A stretch of 64,000 nt of DNA, taken from NCBI GenBank assembly GCA_963722145.1, contig CAVRLW010000005.1:70773-134772 (forward strand), read 5' to 3'. A program made the position numbers and the translations under genes. Of the stretch, positions 45,267-50,929 are shown piece by piece. Position 1 is the stretch's first letter. Each line of letters opens with the position of its first letter. Below the pieces are notes generated by a model. That model did no database searches. It saw only the letters and a list, made by a program, of their open reading frames with translations, and had not been told where the DNA came from. The stretch comes from an uncultured Actinomycetota bacterium (GTDB lineage: Bacteria; Actinomycetota; Actinomycetes; Actinomycetales; Micrococcaceae).

Positions 45267-47483
45267 ATGACCCAGACTCCCGCCCAGCCGTCCCCGCAGC
45301 CCCCCGTCGCCCGGAAAGTTCCCTCGGTGCGCACCCACCACGGCGACGCGTTCGAGGACAACTACGAGTGGCTGCGGGACAAGGAATCCGCCGAGGTCGT
45401 TGACCTGCTCAAGGCCGAAAACACCTACCAGGAGGCCGTGACCGCGCACCAAGAGCCGCTGCGCGAGGCCATCTTCCAGGAAATCAAGGGCCGCACCCAG
45501 GAAACAGACCTCTCCGTACCGAACCGCAAGGACGGCTGGTGGTACTACACCCGCTCGGTCGAGGGCAAGGAGTACGGCATCCACTGCCGCGTGCGCGGCC
45601 AGGAAACCGGGGACCGCGTCGCGGACTGGACTCCCCCGGCCGTGGAGGCCGGCGTCGTCATCCCCGGCGAGGAAGTCCTGCTCGATGGCAACCTCGAGGC
45701 GGAGGGCAAGCCGTTCTTTGCCGTTGGCGGGGCCGCCACGACCATCGACGGCACCCTGTATGCCTACGCCGTGGACAACGCCGGCGACGAGCGCTTCACG
45801 CTGCGCATCAAGGACCTCAGCACCGGCGTGCTGCTGCCGGACGTGATCGAGAACGTCTTCTACGGCATCTCCTTCTCCCCCGACGGCAGCCGGATCTTCT
45901 ACACCGTGGTGGACGATTCCTGGCGGCCGTACCAGGTGAAGTCCCATGTGCTCGGCACACCGGTCAGCGAAGACACGGTCATCTATCAGGAGGACGACGT
46001 CGCCATGTGGCTCGGCTTCGAGCTCTCGGCCGACCGGCGCCATCTGGTGCTCAGCATCGGCTGCTCCGAGTTCAGCGAGACCCGCCTGCTGAGCTTTGAT
46101 GACCTCGACGCCGGACTGCGCACCGTAATCTCCCGCGACGAGCGCATCCTGTACGAGGCCGAGCCGTTCCTGCTGGCGGACGCCTCGGGCCGGAGCCAGG
46201 AGCGGATCCTGCTCACCCACAACAAGGACGCCATCAATTCCATGGTCTCGCTCGTGGACCCGGCCGAGCTCGCAAAGCCCCTTGCCGAGCAGCACTGGGA
46301 CACCGTCGTCGCCCATTCCGACCACGTCCGAGTCAACGGCGCCGGGGTCACGTCCACCCACGCGGTGGTCTCCGTCCGCAAGGACACCATCGAAAGGGTC
46401 CAGGTCCTTCCCCTGGCCGGCCTGGGCACCCCGGAGCAGGGTGCCGCGGTGGAACCCGCCTTCGACGAGGAGCTGTACACGGCCGGCGTCGCGGGCTCGG
46501 ACTACGAGGCCCCCGTGATCCGGATGGGCTACACCTCCTACTTCACGCCGTCCCGGGTCTACGACTTTGTGCTGCCCACCCCGGAGCTCCCGGCCGGTGA
46601 ACTCCTGCTACGCAAGGAGAGCCCGGTGCTGGGCGGTTACTCGCCGTCGGACTACGTCGCCACCCGGGAGTGGGCCACGGCCGCGGACGGGACGAAGATT
46701 CCGCTCTCGGTCCTCCGCCACGCCTCTGTCCGGCAGGATTCGACGGCGGCCGGCTTGGTGTACGGCTACGGCTCCTACGAATTGAGCATGGACCCGGGCT
46801 TCGGGATCCCCCGGCTGTCCCTGCTGGACCGGGGCATCGTGTTCGTGATCGCCCACATCCGCGGCGGCGGCGAGCTGGGCCGGCACTGGTACGACGACGG
46901 CAAGAAGCTGCACAAGAAGAACACGTTCACGGACTTCATCGCGGCCACGGACTGGCTCGCCGGATCCGGCTGGGTGGACCCGGGCCGGATCGCAGCGATG
47001 GGCGGCTCCGCCGGCGGCCTGCTGATGGGCGCGGTCGCCAACCTCGCGCCGGAAAAGTATGCGGCGATGGTTGCCGCCGTCCCGTTCGTGGACGCGCTGA
47101 CCACCATCTTGGACCCCGAACTGCCGCTCTCGGCGCTGGAGTGGGAGGAATGGGGCAACCCGATCACCGACCCGGACGTGTACACGTACATGAAGTCGTA
47201 CACACCGTACGAGAACGTCCGCGCCGTGACCTACCCGAAGATCGCCGCTGTCACCAGCTTCAACGACACCCGTGTGCTCTACGTGGAGCCGGCCAAATGG
47301 GTGCAGCGGCTGCGCGAAGTGAACACCGGAACCGAGCCGATTGTCCTGAAGATCGAGATGGAAGGCGGCCACGGCGGCGCCTCGGGCCGGTACGTGCAGT
47401 GGCGCGAACGGGCCTGGGACTACGCGTTCGTCGCCGATTCCCTCGGCGCCACCGAGCTGCTTCCGGGAGCCGGTCTGAAGTAG
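45267..47483 (+). CDS. ptrB: Oligopeptidase B (S9A)
   Basis: DNYEWLRD, GGSAGG nucleophile, DTRV, GHGG. Confidence 0.92.
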   Translation: MTQTPAQPSPQPPVARKVPSVRTHHGDAFEDNYEWLRDKESAEVVDLLKAENTYQEAVTAHQEPLREAIFQEIKGRTQETDLSVPNRKDGWWYYTRSVEGKEYGIHCRVRGQETGDRVADWTPPAVEAGVVIPGEEVLLDGNLEAEGKPFFAVGGAATTIDGTLYAYAVDNAGDERFTLRIKDLSTGVLLPDVIENVFYGISFSPDGSRIFYTVVDDSWRPYQVKSHVLGTPVSEDTVIYQEDDVAMWLGFELSADRRHLVLSIGCSEFSETRLLSFDDLDAGLRTVISRDERILYEAEPFLLADASGRSQERILLTHNKDAINSMVSLVDPAELAKPLAEQHWDTVVAHSDHVRVNGAGVTSTHAVVSVRKDTIERVQVLPLAGLGTPEQGAAVEPAFDEELYTAGVAGSDYEAPVIRMGYTSYFTPSRVYDFVLPTPELPAGELLLRKESPVLGGYSPSDYVATREWATAADGTKIPLSVLRHASVRQDSTAAGLVYGYGSYELSMDPGFGIPRLSLLDRGIVFVIAHIRGGGELGRHWYDDGKKLHKKNTFTDFIAATDWLAGSGWVDPGRIAAMGGSAGGLLMGAVANLAPEKYAAMVAAVPFVDALTTILDPELPLSALEWEEWGNPITDPDVYTYMKSYTPYENVRAVTYPKIAAVTSFNDTRVLYVEPAKWVQRLREVNTGTEPIVLKIEMEGGHGGASGRYVQWRERAWDYAFVADSLGATELLPGAGLK

Positions 47484-47557: not shown

Positions 47558-47680
47558 GCGTCCGGTACCGCTATGTACAAAAAAATCGTCATCATGCTTA
47601 CTATTGACCGGTGTTAGGCACATCGATGTAGAAACTGCTCACTGGGGGCAGCAGACGCGGTGCCGGAGATGGAGTTTGTT

Positions 47681-48415
47681 ATGAGCGCTGAGCAGGGATT
47701 GACCCCGTTGACCGATGATGAGCTGATGGCGCAGGGCGGCACGGCCCTCCCCGACAAGGAAGTCGCCTCCGTCCTGGACCTGAACGCCGACCTGAACCTG
47801 GGGATAAGCGCCGCGGCGCCGATCGACCTCGGCATCGCGGCCAACGCCAACGTCGCCGCCCCGATTGACGCGGCCGCGTCGGCGAATGTTCTCTCCGTCG
47901 GGTCCGAGTCCCAGGCTCTTGCCGATCAGGGCACCATCATCAACCAGGGCGTGACGGGCGACGCCACTGCAGCTTCCACCCAGGACAGCGTCATCGATCA
48001 GGGCGCCGGCACGGCTGCCGGCACGGCTGCTGATGCCGGCACGGCTGCCGGCACGGCTGCTGATGCCGGCACGGTCCCGACCGGAACCGCCGACGGCGGA
48101 GTCCTCCCCGGCGGTGCGCTGCCGACGGATGTGGCCGGTGTTGCCGACGCCGCTGGCGCCGCGGGCGCTCTCAACGGCAACCTGCTCAACGTTGACGTGA
48201 ACCTGGACGCCGACGCGGACATTGCAGCGCCCATCAACGGTGCGGTGGCCGCCAACGCCAACGTAGCTGCGCCGATCGACGCCGCCGTCGGCGCCAACAT
48301 CGGCTCGATCGACAGCAACGCGTTCGCCGTCGCCCAGCAGGATGCCATCATCAACCAGGACATCCATGGCGACGCCACGGCTTCGGCTGACCAGCAGTCC
48401 GACCTGAAGCAGTAG
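47681..48415 (+). CDS. Acidic Ala/Asn/Gln/Asp-rich protein: leader + two 77-aa repeats; candidate processed fibre subunit
   Basis: GGAG RBS before ATG 47681; ungapped internal duplication; no Sec/Tat signal; no Cys, Trp, Tyr or Arg. Confidence 0.85.
   Translation: MSAEQGLTPLTDDELMAQGGTALPDKEVASVLDLNADLNLGISAAAPIDLGIAANANVAAPIDAAASANVLSVGSESQALADQGTIINQGVTGDATAASTQDSVIDQGAGTAAGTAADAGTAAGTAADAGTVPTGTADGGVLPGGALPTDVAGVADAAGAAGALNGNLLNVDVNLDADADIAAPINGAVAANANVAAPIDAAVGANIGSIDSNAFAVAQQDAIINQDIHGDATASADQQSDLKQ
48005..48074. repeat. 30-bp tandem repeat encoding (AGTAAGTAAD)2 linker
   Basis: GCCGGCACGGCTGCCGGCACGGCTGCTGAT x2 plus a partial copy. Confidence 0.9.
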
Positions 48416-48421
48416 CTCTAG

Positions 48422-50929
48422 ATGAACACTGTGCACGGAGGGCCGTCCGGGCAGGACGGCCCTCCGGTGCCGCCCGCCCAAGGCGGTATGGCCTCCGGAG
48501 GTGCCGCTCCGGCGTCGTCCGTTGCTATCAGCCAGCAGCCGGTACCGGTGCGGGCCGCCGGCGTCCAACTGATCGGCGAGGCGCAGGGGTCCGGCTACAA
48601 GGAAGCTCCGTCCCTGGTGCGCCGCGCCGACGGCCAGACCATCCAGCTCACCCGCCTGCTGTACCTGGTGCTCGAGGCGATAGACGGCCAGCGGGGCCCG
48701 GAAGAAATCGCCGGGCACGCCAGCAACAGCTTCGGACGGCTCGTCAGTGCCGAGAACGTCCGCACGCTGATCAGCTCCCAACTCCTCCCCCTCGGCCTCC
48801 TCCGGCTGGCGGACGGTTCCGAGCCCGCGGTGAAGAAATCGAACCCGCTGCTGGGCATGCGCTTCCGGTACTCGGTGACCGACCCGGACCGCACCCGGAA
48901 GCTCACGGCGCCGTTCGCCACGCTGTTCAACCCCGTGATCGTGGTGGCGGTGACCGTTGCTTTCCTGGCCACGTGCTGGTGGGTACTGATGGTCAAGGGG
49001 CTGGCATCGGCCACGCATGAAGCCTTCGCCAACCCCGGCTTGGTCCTCCTGATCCTGGTGGTCACGGTGCTCTCGGCCGGTTTCCATGAGTTCGGCCACG
49101 CCGCCGCCGCCCGCCGCGGCGGCGCCACCCCCGGCGCCATGGGCACGGGCCTGTACCTGATGTGGCCGGCCTTCTACACCGACGTTACCGATTCCTACCG
49201 GCTGGGGCGGGCCGGCCGGCTGCGCACCGACCTGGGCGGACTCTACTTCAACGCAATCGTGGCCGTCGCGATCATGGGCATCTGGTGGGCCACCGGCTTC
49301 GATGCGCTCCTGCTGGTGGTGGTCACCCAGATCCTGCAGATGGTCCGGCAGCTGATGCCGCTGGTCCGCTTTGACGGCTATCACATCCTGGCCGACGCTA
49401 CCGGCGTGCCGGACCTGTTCCAGCGCATCAAGCCCACCCTGCTGGCCCTGGTGCCGTGGCGCAGGACAGACCCCGAAGCCAGGCTCCTGAAGCCCTGGGC
49501 GCGGGCAGTGGTCACCATTTGGGTGCTGGTCACGGTTCCCCTGCTGCTCTTCAGCATGGCCACCATGGTGCTGACCCTGCCGCGCATCCTGGGCACCGCT
49601 TGGGACAACGGCCTCAAGCAGCAGGCCTTGCTCACCCAGAGCATCGCCACCGGGGACGTCGCCGACGCCGCTGTGCGGGTTATCGCGCTCGCCTGCCTGG
49701 CACTGCCGGTGCTGGGCATCCTGTACATCCTGCTGCGCCTGGTCCGTCAGCTGGTCACCGGGCTGTGGCGCAAGACCCGCGGCAAGGCCCTGCAGCGCGC
49801 CACCGCAGTCGTTGCGATCGCGGCCGTCGCTGCGGGCCTCGCCTGGGCCTGGTGGCCCGGCGGTGACACCTATCGCCCGGTCCAGCCCTACGAGCGCGGC
49901 ACCCTCGCCGACGCCACCACCGCGGTCTTCCCGGCCGCCGCAACGGGCCGGATGGCAGAGGGACAGTCTGGCAAGACCGTTGCCCTGTGGCCGGAGGACG
50001 CACGCCAGCCCACCCGCGACGAGCCGCAACTGAGCATGGTCCTGGTCCCCCGTCAGGCCGCCACAGCCGGCTCGGCAGGCACGGCCGGCACCGCGGCGGC
50101 GCCGTCGTGGGTGTTCCCCTTCGACAGGCCGGCCGCTCCGGACGACGACGGCAATCAGTCCCTCGCGGTCAACACCACTGACGGTTCCGTGGTCTACGAC
50201 GTCGCCTTCGCCCTGGTCTGGGCGGACGACGGCGACACCGTGGACACCAAGAATGAGGCCTACGCCTTTGCCAGCTGCGCGGACTGCGCCGCCGTGGCCG
50301 TGGGCTTCCAGGTGGTCCTGGTTGTGGGCCAGACCCATGTGGTCGTCCCGGAAAACCTGTCGGCGTCGGCCAACTACAACTGCCTCCGGTGCCTGACCTA
50401 TGCGCTCGCGAGCCAACTGGTGCTCACCCTCGACGGGCCCCTCAGCGGCGACGGCATGGCCAGGCTCAACGCGCTGTGGCAGGAGATCGCGGCCTACGGC
50501 AAGGACCTGCGGAACCAGCCGCTCTCGGAAATCCAGGGCCGGCTCAGCGCGTACAAGGAACAGATCATGGCGGTCATCAAGGCCGATCCCAGTGCCACCC
50601 CGGCTGGGTCCGCCGGCACGGCCACGGCGCCGGGCACCGCACCCGGCGCAACATCTGGTGCCACCCATGCCGCCAGTACCGCGGCAGCTCCCGGCAGCAC
50701 GCAGGCTCCGTCACCGGGCGCCACCGGGACCACGCGGACGACGGCGCCGCCGGCCGGCGACGCCGCGCCGACCGGCGCTGCGACGTCGCCCGCGCCCGGG
50801 TCCGGGTCCACGGTGCCGGCCGAGCAGAAACCAACGCAGCCCGCCGCATCGGCACCGGCCGGTCCCACTACGCCCGCAGCGGGGACAACCGCGCCCGTGC
50901 CGGCGGGAACCACGCCGCCGGCTCCGTAG
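48422..50929 (+). CDS. PqqD/RRE-like domain + M50-type intramembrane zinc metalloprotease + C-terminal CxxC beta-repeat domain + Pro/Ala/Thr tail
   Basis: HEFGH at 49085-49099, PAFYTDVT, QLMPLVRFDGY third-ligand motif, multiple TMs; N-terminal strand-strand-helix pattern (LVRRADGQTIQL..LLYLVLEAIDG.R..EEIA). Confidence 0.8.
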   Translation: MNTVHGGPSGQDGPPVPPAQGGMASGGAAPASSVAISQQPVPVRAAGVQLIGEAQGSGYKEAPSLVRRADGQTIQLTRLLYLVLEAIDGQRGPEEIAGHASNSFGRLVSAENVRTLISSQLLPLGLLRLADGSEPAVKKSNPLLGMRFRYSVTDPDRTRKLTAPFATLFNPVIVVAVTVAFLATCWWVLMVKGLASATHEAFANPGLVLLILVVTVLSAGFHEFGHAAAARRGGATPGAMGTGLYLMWPAFYTDVTDSYRLGRAGRLRTDLGGLYFNAIVAVAIMGIWWATGFDALLLVVVTQILQMVRQLMPLVRFDGYHILADATGVPDLFQRIKPTLLALVPWRRTDPEARLLKPWARAVVTIWVLVTVPLLLFSMATMVLTLPRILGTAWDNGLKQQALLTQSIATGDVADAAVRVIALACLALPVLGILYILLRLVRQLVTGLWRKTRGKALQRATAVVAIAAVAAGLAWAWWPGGDTYRPVQPYERGTLADATTAVFPAAATGRMAEGQSGKTVALWPEDARQPTRDEPQLSMVLVPRQAATAGSAGTAGTAAAPSWVFPFDRPAAPDDDGNQSLAVNTTDGSVVYDVAFALVWADDGDTVDTKNEAYAFASCADCAAVAVGFQVVLVVGQTHVVVPENLSASANYNCLRCLTYALASQLVLTLDGPLSGDGMARLNALWQEIAAYGKDLRNQPLSEIQGRLSAYKEQIMAVIKADPSATPAGSAGTATAPGTAPGATSGATHAASTAAAPGSTQAPSPGATGTTRTTAPPAGDAAPTGAATSPAPGSGSTVPAEQKPTQPAASAPAGPTTPAAGTTAPVPAGTTPPAP

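What the first reader, a model, noticed from the sequence alone, without database searches (positions are those of the whole stretch)
50153..50430. The protease carries disulfide-lockable copies of its partner's repeat motif (built-in nucleator?)
Seen: after the last TM helix there are three similar units, NQSLAVNTTDGSVVYDVAFALV, NEAYAFASCADCAAVAVGFQVV and NLSASANYNCLRCLTYALASQLV. The third aligns without gaps to gene 1: ASAN-YN-C-LR-C-LTY-ALA-S-Q versus ASAN-VL-S-VG-S-ESQ-ALA-D-Q (repeat 1) and VGAN-IG-S-ID-S-NAF-AVA-Q-Q (repeat 2). The two Ser positions of the turn are replaced by CxxC, twice. Inference: a pre-folded, disulfide-stabilised, membrane-anchored template that seeds and tethers the subunit, like CsgB/CsgF, fused to the processing enzyme.
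Basis: partly seen in the sequence, partly recalled or inferred. Interest (0 to 1): 0.85.

Follow-up and report, generated by a model that had tools for sequence, protein, structure and literature searches.

The report
Protease domain mimicking its partner peptide
The outer tail of this Arthrobacter membrane protease is a conserved four-cysteine beta-hairpin domain whose third hairpin copies the core motif of the partner protein, which suggests, without proving, that it docks or seeds that protein outside the cell.

Summary
Residues 578-667 of the 835-aa protease form three strand-turn-strand units. Each starts with a near-invariant Asn, and both CxxC pairs are invariant and sit in turns. Unit 3 aligns without gaps to both gene-1 repeats (P-x-[N/D]-x5-N-x2-[S/C]-x2-[S/C]-x3-A-x-A-x-Q). 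Five profile-profile comparisons return this same register. They are weak (P 3e-4 to 0.5) but beat column-shuffled nulls wherever that was tested.

New here:
- In other Actinomycetota the domain is a separate secreted protein; 74 of 78 carry a signal peptide.
- It sits beside a protease that lacks the domain and 2-4 tandem precursors of about 70 aa. Their core is exactly the segment that matches unit 3.
- Domain and peptide co-occur in 23 of the 27 genomes that have either.
- A lineage of large-genome actinobacteria changed the motif in both partners.

The domain is therefore extracytoplasmic, so disulfides are plausible, and it is tied to the peptide. Nucleation of fibres is unproven: the gene-1 model is poor, no export route is known, and membrane anchoring is not conserved.

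The scan noted this cassette before on at least five other genomes. None of those notes, as shown, mentions this mimicry. No Pfam, NCBIfam, PDB or literature match exists for the domain.

The parts
47681..48415 (+). Gene 1: a 244-aa acidic Ala/Asn-rich protein. It has a leader-like N-terminus, two 77-aa modules (47774-48001 and 48182-48412) and a low-complexity linker.
   Evidence: ORF list. 3498 homologues. Found immediately upstream of the protease in 76/80 genome loci. No Pfam, NCBIfam or PDB match.
47861..47929 (+). Core motif copy 1 of gene 1, PIDAAASANVLSVGSESQALADQ. This is the segment that aligns to unit 3 of the protease. It is also the whole core of the short precursors found in other lineages.
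   Evidence: hhalign register. Pattern search of the genome. Short precursors match A3 profile positions 59-94.
48272..48340 (+). Core motif copy 2 of gene 1, PIDAAVGANIGSIDSNAFAVAQQ.
   Evidence: hhalign register on repeat 2. Pattern search.
48422..50929 (+). Gene 2: an 835-aa intramembrane HExxH metalloprotease with an N-terminal leader-binding-type region, 7 hydrophobic segments, the Cys domain and a Pro/Thr/Ala-rich tail.
   Evidence: ORF. NCBIfam daptide_HExxH E 5.5e-31, 108 bits, below the cut-off of 300. YydH/LiaK E 3e-8. Single copy in the genome.
49085..49099 (+). HEFGH zinc-binding motif (aa 222-226) at the cytoplasmic end of TM2.
   Evidence: Read directly from the sequence.
49796..49855 (+). 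Last transmembrane segment (aa 459-478). It follows a Lys/Arg-rich loop, which places everything after it outside the cell.
   Evidence: Hydropathy and positive-inside reading.
50108..50566 (+). Conserved extracytoplasmic domain (aa 563-715): the WVFPF lead-in, three hairpin units and a two-helix hairpin.
   Evidence: 1226 representatives at E<=1e-3. Conservation table. AF2 model: best pLDDT 79.9, six strands plus two helices. Standalone secreted homologues.
50153..50218 (+). Unit 1, NQSLAVNTTDGSVVYDVAFALV. It has a TxDG turn and no Cys.
   Evidence: Its profile similarity to units 2 and 3 is not significant.
50252..50317 (+). Unit 2, NEAYAFASCADCAAVAVGFQVV. CxxC no. 1 lies at 50276-50287.
   Evidence: Unit 2 versus unit 3: hhalign Prob 76%, E 2e-5.
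50354..50422 (+). Unit 3, NLSASANYNCLRCLTYALASQLV. CxxC no. 2 lies at 50381-50392. This is the unit that mimics the partner's core motif.
50567..50926 (+). Pro/Thr/Ala/Gly-rich low-complexity tail (aa 716-835). The secreted standalone homologues carry a similar tail.
   Evidence: Sequence. Tails of standalone proteins.

Best explanation
The C-terminal domain is an extracytoplasmic docking or template module for the processed partner.

Shown:
- It is a conserved module of about 155 aa, exposed outside the membrane.
- It is built from three strand-turn-strand units followed by a helical hairpin.
- Four invariant Cys sit in the turns of units 2 and 3.
- It is an obligate third part of a peptide/protease system. 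It is fused to the protease in Micrococcales and many other lineages, and secreted as a separate protein in Acidimicrobiia-, Thermoleophilia-, Frankia- and Streptomyces-type lineages.
- Its third hairpin carries the same residue pattern as the partner's core hairpin, with Cys where the partner has Ser.

Inferred:
1. The N-terminal RRE-type region of the protease binds the leader of gene 1, and the M50 core removes it. This rests on analogy with the daptide peptidase MpaP.
2. The core reaches the outer face by an unknown route.
3. There it stacks like-on-like, by Asn, Ala and Gln ladders, onto the pre-folded domain. The domain's turns are held by disulfides, so it is folded without needing to polymerise.
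4. This captures the product at the cell surface and, in the stronger version, seeds further addition of subunits.
For: Location outside:
- 7 TM segments with K/R-rich cytoplasmic loops.
- 74 of 78 standalone homologues have a signal peptide, and 68 of 78 have exactly four Cys (examples).

Genetic linkage:
- Gene 1 is adjacent in 76/80 loci, with no other conserved neighbour.
- In one sample of 401 Actinomycetota genomes the domain is in 25, the peptide in 25 and both in 23.
- All three parts are present in 21/21 loci of the large-genome (probably Streptomycetaceae) lineage.

Mimicry:
- The same ungapped register appears in five profile comparisons. Column-shuffled nulls are beaten.
- The short precursors consist of a leader plus exactly this segment.
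- The joint pattern is unique to the operon within the genome.

Co-variation:
- Main lineages have domain VVxPxNxAxAxNxxC against peptide VAAPVNAAVAANVLS.
- The large-genome lineage has HLNAxNLSRAxNxHC against xVxAHNxSxAxNxxS.
- That lineage's domain matches its own peptides at 5.5 of 14 positions, against 1.7 and 3.3 for the other lineages' peptides. The within-lineage permutation gives p about 0.02.

Fold:
- The AF2 top model has three hairpin units.
- The best fold-search hits are the FapC amyloid and beta-helices.
- Asn at the start of each unit and Gln near the end of units 2 and 3 fit ladders.

Other:
- There are 2-7 peptide matches per genome in split lineages against one or two domain copies.
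- Core sequences are nearly unchanged across classes. That fits a structural subunit better than an arms-race toxin.
Against: - All profile-profile probabilities are low (0.1-40%). One comparison has E = 0.5.
- A sequence-HMM of the peptide core does not find unit 3 in the genome.
- Four of five AF2 models of the domain have pLDDT 45-54. No fold match is significant; the best has TM 0.22.
- The gene-1 model is poor and has no fold match.
- No exporter is conserved next to the genes, and M50 active sites face the cytoplasm.
- The fused-lineage domain does not match its own partner best. In the identity matrix the F row reads 4.23 against 5.42 and 4.71.
- Two genomes of one family have peptides and protease but no detectable domain.
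- The helical hairpin directly follows unit 3 and might cover it.
- The co-variation rests mainly on one deep lineage split, so the number of independent events is small.
Confidence: 0.4

Rival explanations
1. The domain binds the processed peptide through the same hairpin mimicry, but as a cap, a retention site, a chaperone or a self-protection (immunity) protein. It would limit or inhibit assembly or activity rather than seed it.
For: The linkage, location and mimicry evidence is the same as for the best explanation. One domain gene against several peptide genes also fits one immunity or cap protein for several peptides. The helical hairpin right after unit 3 looks like an end cap of a short beta stack, which would block growth.
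Against: The cores are strongly acidic, carry no basic residues and are almost invariant across classes. That is unlike the diversifying antimicrobial peptides that need immunity proteins. Nothing distinguishes capping from seeding in silico.
Confidence: 0.2
2. The resemblance is a relic of common origin, with the domain arising from triplicated core-like hairpins, or a convergence of Ala/Asn-rich hairpins. The domain would have another job, such as a wall-binding, redox- or envelope-sensing module that gates the protease. The PDZ domains of RseP do this for another site-2 protease.
For: Units 2 and 3 are clearly duplicates. Profile similarity to the partner is weak. Extracytoplasmic accessory domains are usual in site-2 proteases (general knowledge of RseP). 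The domain carries a Pro/Thr-rich tail typical of wall-spanning segments.
Against: As a separate secreted protein, which is the form in most non-fused lineages, it cannot gate the protease in cis. A relic would not be expected to change P to A and A to S in parallel with the peptide. Strict co-occurrence with the peptide argues for a role tied to the peptide.
Confidence: 0.2
3. The two CxxC pairs form a Cys4 metal site, a zinc-ribbon or rubredoxin-like pair of knuckles on two hairpin turns, in a fold unrelated to the partner.
For: Two CxxC motifs at the tips of consecutive beta-hairpins are the classic zinc-knuckle arrangement.
Against: The domain is exported, and exported Cys are generally oxidised. 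In the large-genome lineage the first pair is C-x5-C. No zinc-ribbon family or solved structure matches.
Confidence: 0.07
4. The similarity is chance. It would arise from low-complexity Ala/Val/Asn composition in a high-GC genome and was picked out by eye.
For: BLASTP gives E = 20. The picked 18-mer scores below the best-of-any-18-mer null. hhalign probabilities run from 0.1 to 40%.
Against: The same register is recovered in five comparisons built from different sequence sets. Column-shuffled and parity-preserving nulls never or almost never reach the score. Invariant columns coincide: P, N, [S/C], [S/C], A, Q. There are lineage-specific parallel changes. The pattern is unique within the genome.
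Confidence: 0.08

Closest known systems
CsgB, the curli nucleator, with CsgA (E. coli); likewise FapB with FapC (Pseudomonas)
   Same: A minor, surface-exposed protein is encoded beside the major subunit and shares its strand-turn-strand repeat pattern with Asn/Gln positions. It is thought to offer a folded template for the subunit. The best, though non-significant, fold-search hit of the domain model is FapC, 9u4u.
   Different: There is no sequence or Pfam relationship. The system is Gram-positive. The subunit has a RiPP-type leader instead of a Sec signal. Here the template is fused to, or encoded next to, an intramembrane protease, carries four Cys and a helical hairpin, and only one of its three units resembles the subunit. 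Nucleation is not shown.
MpaP/DapP, the RRE-fused intramembrane site-2 leader peptidase of daptide clusters (NCBIfam NF041824; Ren et al. 2023, PMC10036551)
   Same: It is the closest family for the N-terminal 340 residues (E 5.5e-31). An RRE is fused N-terminally to an M50 protease encoded beside leader-bearing precursors.
   Different: The score is 108 bits against a cut-off of 300. There are no daptide tailoring enzymes nearby. The NF041824 profile is 379 positions long and has no counterpart of the Cys domain. The precursor cores are unrelated.
TapA with TasA (Bacillus subtilis) and chaplins with rodlins (Streptomyces)
   Same: These are Gram-positive surface fibre systems in which an accessory protein anchors or organises a small beta-rich subunit. 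Chaplins also carry conserved Cys pairs (general knowledge).
   Different: All of those are Sec-exported and processed by signal peptidases. They share no sequence similarity, leader/RRE logic or M50 protease with this system.
PDZ domains of RseP, the extracytoplasmic accessory domains of a site-2 protease
   Same: An extracytoplasmic domain is attached to an M50 intramembrane protease.
   Different: The fold is unrelated. Here the domain is C-terminal, can be a free secreted protein, and resembles the substrate's core.

Membership tests
Curli-type nucleator (CsgB; Pfam Curlin_rpt) | The curlin repeat sequence is detectable by the family profile. | tested here: not met
   No Pfam family at E<=1 for the whole protein. 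None relevant at E<=10 for 22 domain sequences.
Curli-type nucleator (CsgB; Pfam Curlin_rpt) | The protein shares the repeat pattern of the major subunit encoded in the same operon. | tested here: inconclusive
   Unit 3 shares the partner's pattern in a reproducible register, but with weak statistics. Units 1 and 2 do not do so clearly.
Curli-type nucleator (CsgB; Pfam Curlin_rpt) | The protein is located at the cell surface or outside the membrane. | tested here: met
   Topology by the positive-inside rule. Signal peptides on 74 of 78 standalone homologues.
Curli-type nucleator (CsgB; Pfam Curlin_rpt) | The protein accelerates polymerisation of the subunit. | not testable with these tools
   This needs seeding kinetics or genetics.
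Daptide leader peptidase (NF041824, MpaP/DapP) | The score reaches the curated cut-off of 300 bits. | tested here: not met
   108.1 bits, E 5.5e-31. 108.7 bits in the whole-genome search.
Daptide leader peptidase (NF041824, MpaP/DapP) | An HExxH motif lies in a TM helix, with a downstream Asp of an xDG motif. | tested here: met
   HEFGH at aa 222-226 and LVRFDGYH at aa 314-321, read from the sequence.
Daptide leader peptidase (NF041824, MpaP/DapP) | Daptide tailoring genes (DapB/C, aminotransferase, methyltransferase) lie next door. | tested here: not met
   Clustering of neighbours in 80 loci finds only the two genes conserved.
Daptide leader peptidase (NF041824, MpaP/DapP) | An N-terminal RiPP recognition element is present. 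| tested here: inconclusive
   The NF041824 match starts at profile position 16, aa 61. A weak PqqD hit, E 0.029, falls on a split-lineage homologue. There is no Pfam hit in the window protein.
Zinc ribbon / rubredoxin-type Cys4 site | Two CxxC knuckles sit on beta-hairpin turns. | tested here: met
   The Cys are invariant. They lie in the turns between strands 53-63/69-81 and 87-97/104-116 of the model.
Zinc ribbon / rubredoxin-type Cys4 site | The site lies in a reducing compartment and binds metal. | tested here: not met
   The compartment is extracytoplasmic. Metal binding itself is not testable here.
Functional amyloid subunit (applied to gene 1) | The protein forms cross-beta fibres. | not testable with these tools
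   The AF2 monomer model has pLDDT 56 with beta-strands only in the second half of each module. There is no fold match.

The most novel reading that the evidence does not exclude
A previously unrecognised Gram-positive surface-fibre system of Actinomycetota. Leader-tagged hairpin subunits are either 70-aa peptides or, in Arthrobacter, a doubled 244-aa protein. They are matured by an RRE-guided intramembrane M50 protease. They then polymerise on a disulfide-locked three-rung template that copies and co-evolves with the subunit hairpin. The template is secreted separately or fused to the protease itself.
Probability: 0.2. Interest if true: 0.9.

Novelty: new variant of a known kind. Interest (0 to 1): 0.72.

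Why it matters
The protease-plus-leader logic is known so far only from small antibiotic-type peptides such as daptides and epipeptides. Here it is joined to a conserved secreted protein that imitates the product's core and changes with it between lineages. No characterised RiPP or amyloid system has this arrangement.

If the domain is a template or dock, three things follow:
- It would define a new way for Gram-positive bacteria to build or hold a surface assembly.
- It would give a first function to a domain family with more than 1,200 representatives and no annotation.
- It would explain a gene pair present in several percent of Actinomycetota genomes.

Even on the modest reading, the work adds a third (and in some lineages a fourth) component to a cassette that earlier notes of this scan treated as two genes. 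It also turns the question into a simple binding experiment.

Tried and rejected
- **Sequence searches of PDB.** Neither proteins nor the domain profile gave anything.
- **Pfam and NCBIfam.** No family for the domain, for gene 1 or for the short peptides.
- **Foldseek against PDB.** No significant match for the domain model and none at all for gene 1.
- **Plain HMM of the peptide core against the six-frame genome.** It finds gene 1 only, not unit 3. The resemblance is therefore below sequence-to-profile sensitivity.
- **Mean-field DCA on 352-396 domain sequences.** I tried this to decide between a hairpin meander and a parallel stack. The top couplings were dominated by terminal gaps and indel-bearing loops, so it was inconclusive.
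- **Literature.** There is no paper with the peptide motifs. Nothing beyond the daptide paper covers RRE-fused M50 peptidases.
- **The first shuffle script** timed out and was rewritten.
- **NCBI's name 'peptidoglycan-binding protein' for gene 1.** I considered and dropped it. No domain evidence supports it.
- **A bacteriocin-plus-immunity reading.** I rate it unlikely because the cores are acidic and nearly invariant.
Full report
**1. What is at the coordinates**

The window is from an Arthrobacter-like genome; the best protein hits are Arthrobacter and Pseudarthrobacter. Two genes separated by 6 bp lie on the + strand.
- Gene 1 (47681-48415) encodes a 244-aa acidic Ala/Asn-rich protein.
- Gene 2 (48422-50929) encodes an 835-aa membrane protein with HEFGH at aa 222-226.

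Gene 2 matches NCBIfam daptide_HExxH at E 5.5e-31. That is 108 bits, far below the cut-off of 300. It also matches YydH/LiaK at E 3e-8. Pfam gives only a sub-threshold M50 hit.

**2. Is the domain outside the cell?**

Hydropathy gives seven hydrophobic segments between aa 161 and 480. The loops predicted to be cytoplasmic are rich in Arg/Lys, especially the one before the last segment (RLVRQLVTGLWRKTRGKALQR). With a cytoplasmic N-terminus, the C-terminal part is therefore outside.

Independent support came from other lineages, where the same domain is a separate protein of 200-280 aa with an N-terminal signal peptide.
- Examples are MNRFYRSLALWAALLLLLVPTTAYAQE... and MKRLALLFVIGLSVAVTPAAAQEG....
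- In a set of 78 full-length standalone homologues, 74 have a K/R-then-hydrophobic N-terminus. The other four look like mis-called starts.
- 68 of the 78 have exactly four Cys.

The refutation condition 'domain is cytoplasmic' is therefore not met.

**3. The domain as a family**

A search of 1.84 billion representatives with aa 555-715 found 1226 proteins at E<=1e-3. In 86 representatives that cover the domain, the four Cys are present in 86, 86, 84 and 84.

The consensus is WVFPF.P..P.GDNQALAVNT.DG..YDVAFALVW...V...NEAYAxASCxxCxxVAVAFQVVLV.....V.PxNxAxAxNYxCxxCxTxAxAxQLV, followed by about 40 helical residues. No Pfam family, NCBIfam family or PDB sequence matches it. It is single-copy in this genome.

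**4. Structure**

AF2 with a 61-sequence alignment gave one model at pLDDT 79.9 and pTM 0.71. The other four were at 45-54, so the model deserves caution.
- It has six strands forming three strand-turn-strand units (24-29/37-48, 53-63/69-81 and 87-97/104-116 in domain numbering), then two helices.
- Both CxxC pairs fall in the turns.
- The units start with N24, N57 and N91 (N578, N611, N645). These are near-invariant or invariant and spaced 33 and 34 residues apart.
- Units 2 and 3 end with invariant Q76 and Q111.

At profile level units 2 and 3 are duplicates (Prob 76%, E 2e-5). Unit 1 is not significantly similar.

Foldseek against PDB found nothing significant. The top hit is the FapC amyloid, 9u4u (E 5.5e-3, TM 0.22). 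The next hits are beta-helices: LpxD, SufBD, ice-binding proteins and bactofilin. I read this only as a hint that the model is a short stack of hairpins.

**5. The resemblance to gene 1**

Pairwise BLASTP is not significant (E = 20). The best-of-any-18-mer null is 30.8, so a single-sequence comparison does not exceed what selection by eye would give.

Family profiles change the picture. hhalign returns the same ungapped register each time.

| Comparison | Score | P or E | Prob |
|---|---|---|---|
| Domain alignment A1 vs gene-1 repeat 1 (35 columns) | 23.6 | 0.0017 | 16% |
| A1 vs repeat 2 | 17.9 | 0.021 | 2.3% |
| A1 vs the whole gene-1 protein | 23.6 | 0.0089 | 4.5% |
| Independent alignments A2 vs A3 | 17.8 | 0.083 | 0.7% |
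| Standalone-protein alignment A4 vs A3 | 13.1 | 0.5 | 0.1% |

Column-shuffled nulls reached the observed score in 0/150, 2/150 and 0/150 trials.

Invariant columns coincide: P643 with P61, N651 with N69, C654 with S72, C657 with S75 and Q665 with Q83. AF2 of gene 1, though poor (pLDDT 56), puts strands 65-70 and 76-92 on either side of the S-x-x-S turn. This is the same secondary-structure register as unit 3.

In the whole genome (8.8 million six-frame residues) the joint pattern P.[ND].{5}N..[SC]..[SC].{3}A.A.Q occurs only three times: the two gene-1 repeats and unit 3. About 0.004 are expected from composition, but the pattern is post hoc. A plain HMM of the peptide core does not find unit 3.

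The similarity is therefore real in the sense of reproducible and above shuffled controls. It is too weak to prove homology.

**6. The wider system**

In 80 genome loci from across Actinomycetota, gene 1 sits directly upstream of gene 2 in 76. Three of the other four are cut by a contig end. No other neighbour is conserved.

A sample of 401 Actinomycetota genomes has the domain in 25. In about half of these the domain lies in a small open frame rather than fused to the protease. Fetching those loci showed a split version of the system:
- two to four tandem precursors of 64-75 aa, each with a leader (GLSxEELExQxxExLPxREEMSL) and a 38-aa core (INANVAAPVNAAVAANVLSDNSVAYANAEQDVDIDQSN);
- an RRE-M50 protease without the Cys domain;
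- a secreted protein carrying the domain, either directly downstream of the protease or nearby.

The short core corresponds to gene-1 profile positions 59-94, which covers the motif that aligns to unit 3.

In these lineages a profile of 28 cores against 12 standalone domains gives Prob 40%, P 2.9e-4 and score 24.5 in the same register (vAaPvNaAvAxNvlSDxsxAyAnAxQ against vvxPxNxAiAvNxxCtxCxTxAxAYQ). A column-shuffle null gives 10.6 +/- 2.3 and a parity-preserving null 11.5 +/- 2.6. Neither reached the score in 300 trials.

Searching the same 401 genomes with the gene-1 profile gives 25 positives, of which 23 also have the domain.
- The two domain-only cases are a 640-contig assembly and a divergent variant in a large-genome actinobacterium.
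- The two peptide-only cases belong to one family and show no domain even at E<=1. This counts against strict necessity.

Source names of standalone homologues place them in Acidimicrobiaceae, Solirubrobacterales and Frankiaceae MAGs.

**7. A third lineage and co-variation**

The weak hit in the 9.9-Mb genome led to a variant present in 59 of 251 genomes of that family. In 21 loci all three parts are present.
- The precursor is ELxAESAELLPGREALG plus LKFSFTKTVNVTKHVANVNAHNxSxAxNxxSPxAVAQSEAxQSISIHQ.
- The domain has C-x5-C in unit 2 and CxxC in unit 3.

The strand before the first Cys or Ser differs between lineages in the same way in both partners.

| Lineage | Domain | Peptide |
|---|---|---|
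| Main lineages | VVxPxNxAxAxNxxC | VAAPVNAAVAANVLS |
| Large-genome lineage | HLNAxNLSRAxNxHC | xVxAHNxSxAxNxxS |

Pro becomes Ala and Ala becomes Ser in both partners.

The table gives mean identities over 14 positions. F is the fused lineage, S the split lineages and T the large-genome lineage.

| Domain group | Peptides F | Peptides S | Peptides T |
|---|---|---|---|
| F | 4.23 | 5.42 | 4.71 |
| S | 4.51 | 6.11 | 4.28 |
| T | 1.67 | 3.33 | 5.52 |

A global permutation gives p<=2e-4, which relatedness inflates. Permutation within lineages gives p about 0.02. The fused lineage does not match its own partner best, so the co-variation is partial and rests on few independent events.

**8. Mechanism**

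Shown:
- location outside the cell;
- invariant Cys in hairpin turns;
- linkage to the peptide and protease in fused and split forms;
- a reproducible, lineage-tracking resemblance of unit 3 to the product's core.

Inferred:
- Leader recognition and removal by the RRE-M50 part. [quoted passage not shown]
- Passage of the core to the outside, for which no conserved exporter was seen.
- Like-on-like stacking of the core onto the disulfide-held domain.

I rate 'the domain binds the processed core by hairpin mimicry' at about 0.4 as stated. The fibre-seeding version is about 0.2. The main rivals are a binding-but-capping or retention role and a relic resemblance with another function, at about 0.2 each. 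A Cys4 metal site and pure chance are minor.

Three points favour a structural product over a toxin: the cores are very acidic, they are almost unchanged across classes, and peptide genes outnumber the domain gene.

**9. Comparison with known systems and novelty**

The protease part works like, and is distantly related to, daptide and epipeptide leader peptidases. It fails the membership cut-off and lacks their tailoring genes. The domain works, if at all, like CsgB or FapB nucleators, but shares no detectable family with them.

Earlier notes of this scan recorded the two-gene cassette on at least five other genomes. One mentioned a three-part version. None of the texts shown addresses the Cys domain's mimicry of the core. 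No paper in the library holds the peptide motifs.

Noticed in passing
L001:2403-3455 (+), Pseudarthrobacter sp. TAF60_1: This genome has the fused protease and also a separate 350-aa gene just upstream of gene 1. It encodes only a TM anchor, a linker and a second copy of the Cys domain, matching aa 444-736 of the window protease. The 'anchor plus domain' module is therefore autonomous even in the fused lineage.
   Followed up: partly
L084:5335-6165(-), L086:5666-6442(-), L087:5724-6542(+), L088:5755-6588(-), L089:5961-6764(-), L094:5989-6798(-), L096:2648-3406(-): In 8 of 12 split-system loci a lipoprotein of about 260 aa, with a lipobox Cys near residue 20, lies directly beside the standalone domain gene. 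It may be a fourth component. It has no Pfam match and no homologue was found in the window's genome.
   Followed up: partly
L098:2989-3555(-) (genome G206): This precursor carries two core modules joined by an acidic Asp/Glu/Asn/Phe-rich spacer. It is intermediate between the 70-aa single-core peptides and the doubled 244-aa Arthrobacter protein. In this genome and in G373, of the same family, no Cys domain was detected even at E<=1.
   Followed up: partly
L093 and L130-L149 (family of G295): A divergent version of the whole system occurs in 59 of 251 genomes of this large-genome (probably Streptomycetaceae) family. It has a different core (LKFSFTKTVNVTKHVANVNAHN...), C-x5-C in place of the first CxxC, and 1-2 precursor genes.
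   Followed up: partly
window 47660-48415: NCBI-derived names call gene-1 homologues 'peptidoglycan-binding protein'. JGI calls even the standalone Cys-domain proteins 'putative peptide zinc metalloprotease protein'. No domain evidence found here supports either name.
   Followed up: yes
window 45267-47483 (+): A 738-aa ORF directly upstream looks like an oligopeptidase B or prolyl-oligopeptidase-type serine peptidase, judged by eye from the sequence only. A long ORF with a similar N-terminus precedes the cassette in L001, but this neighbour is not conserved outside close relatives.
   Followed up: no
window 50567-50926: The 120-aa Pro/Thr/Ala/Gly tail after the domain recurs, with different composition (Pro/Ser/Thr/Glu), on the secreted standalone proteins. 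It may be a wall-spanning or glycosylated segment. None ends in a sortase motif in the examples read.
   Followed up: no
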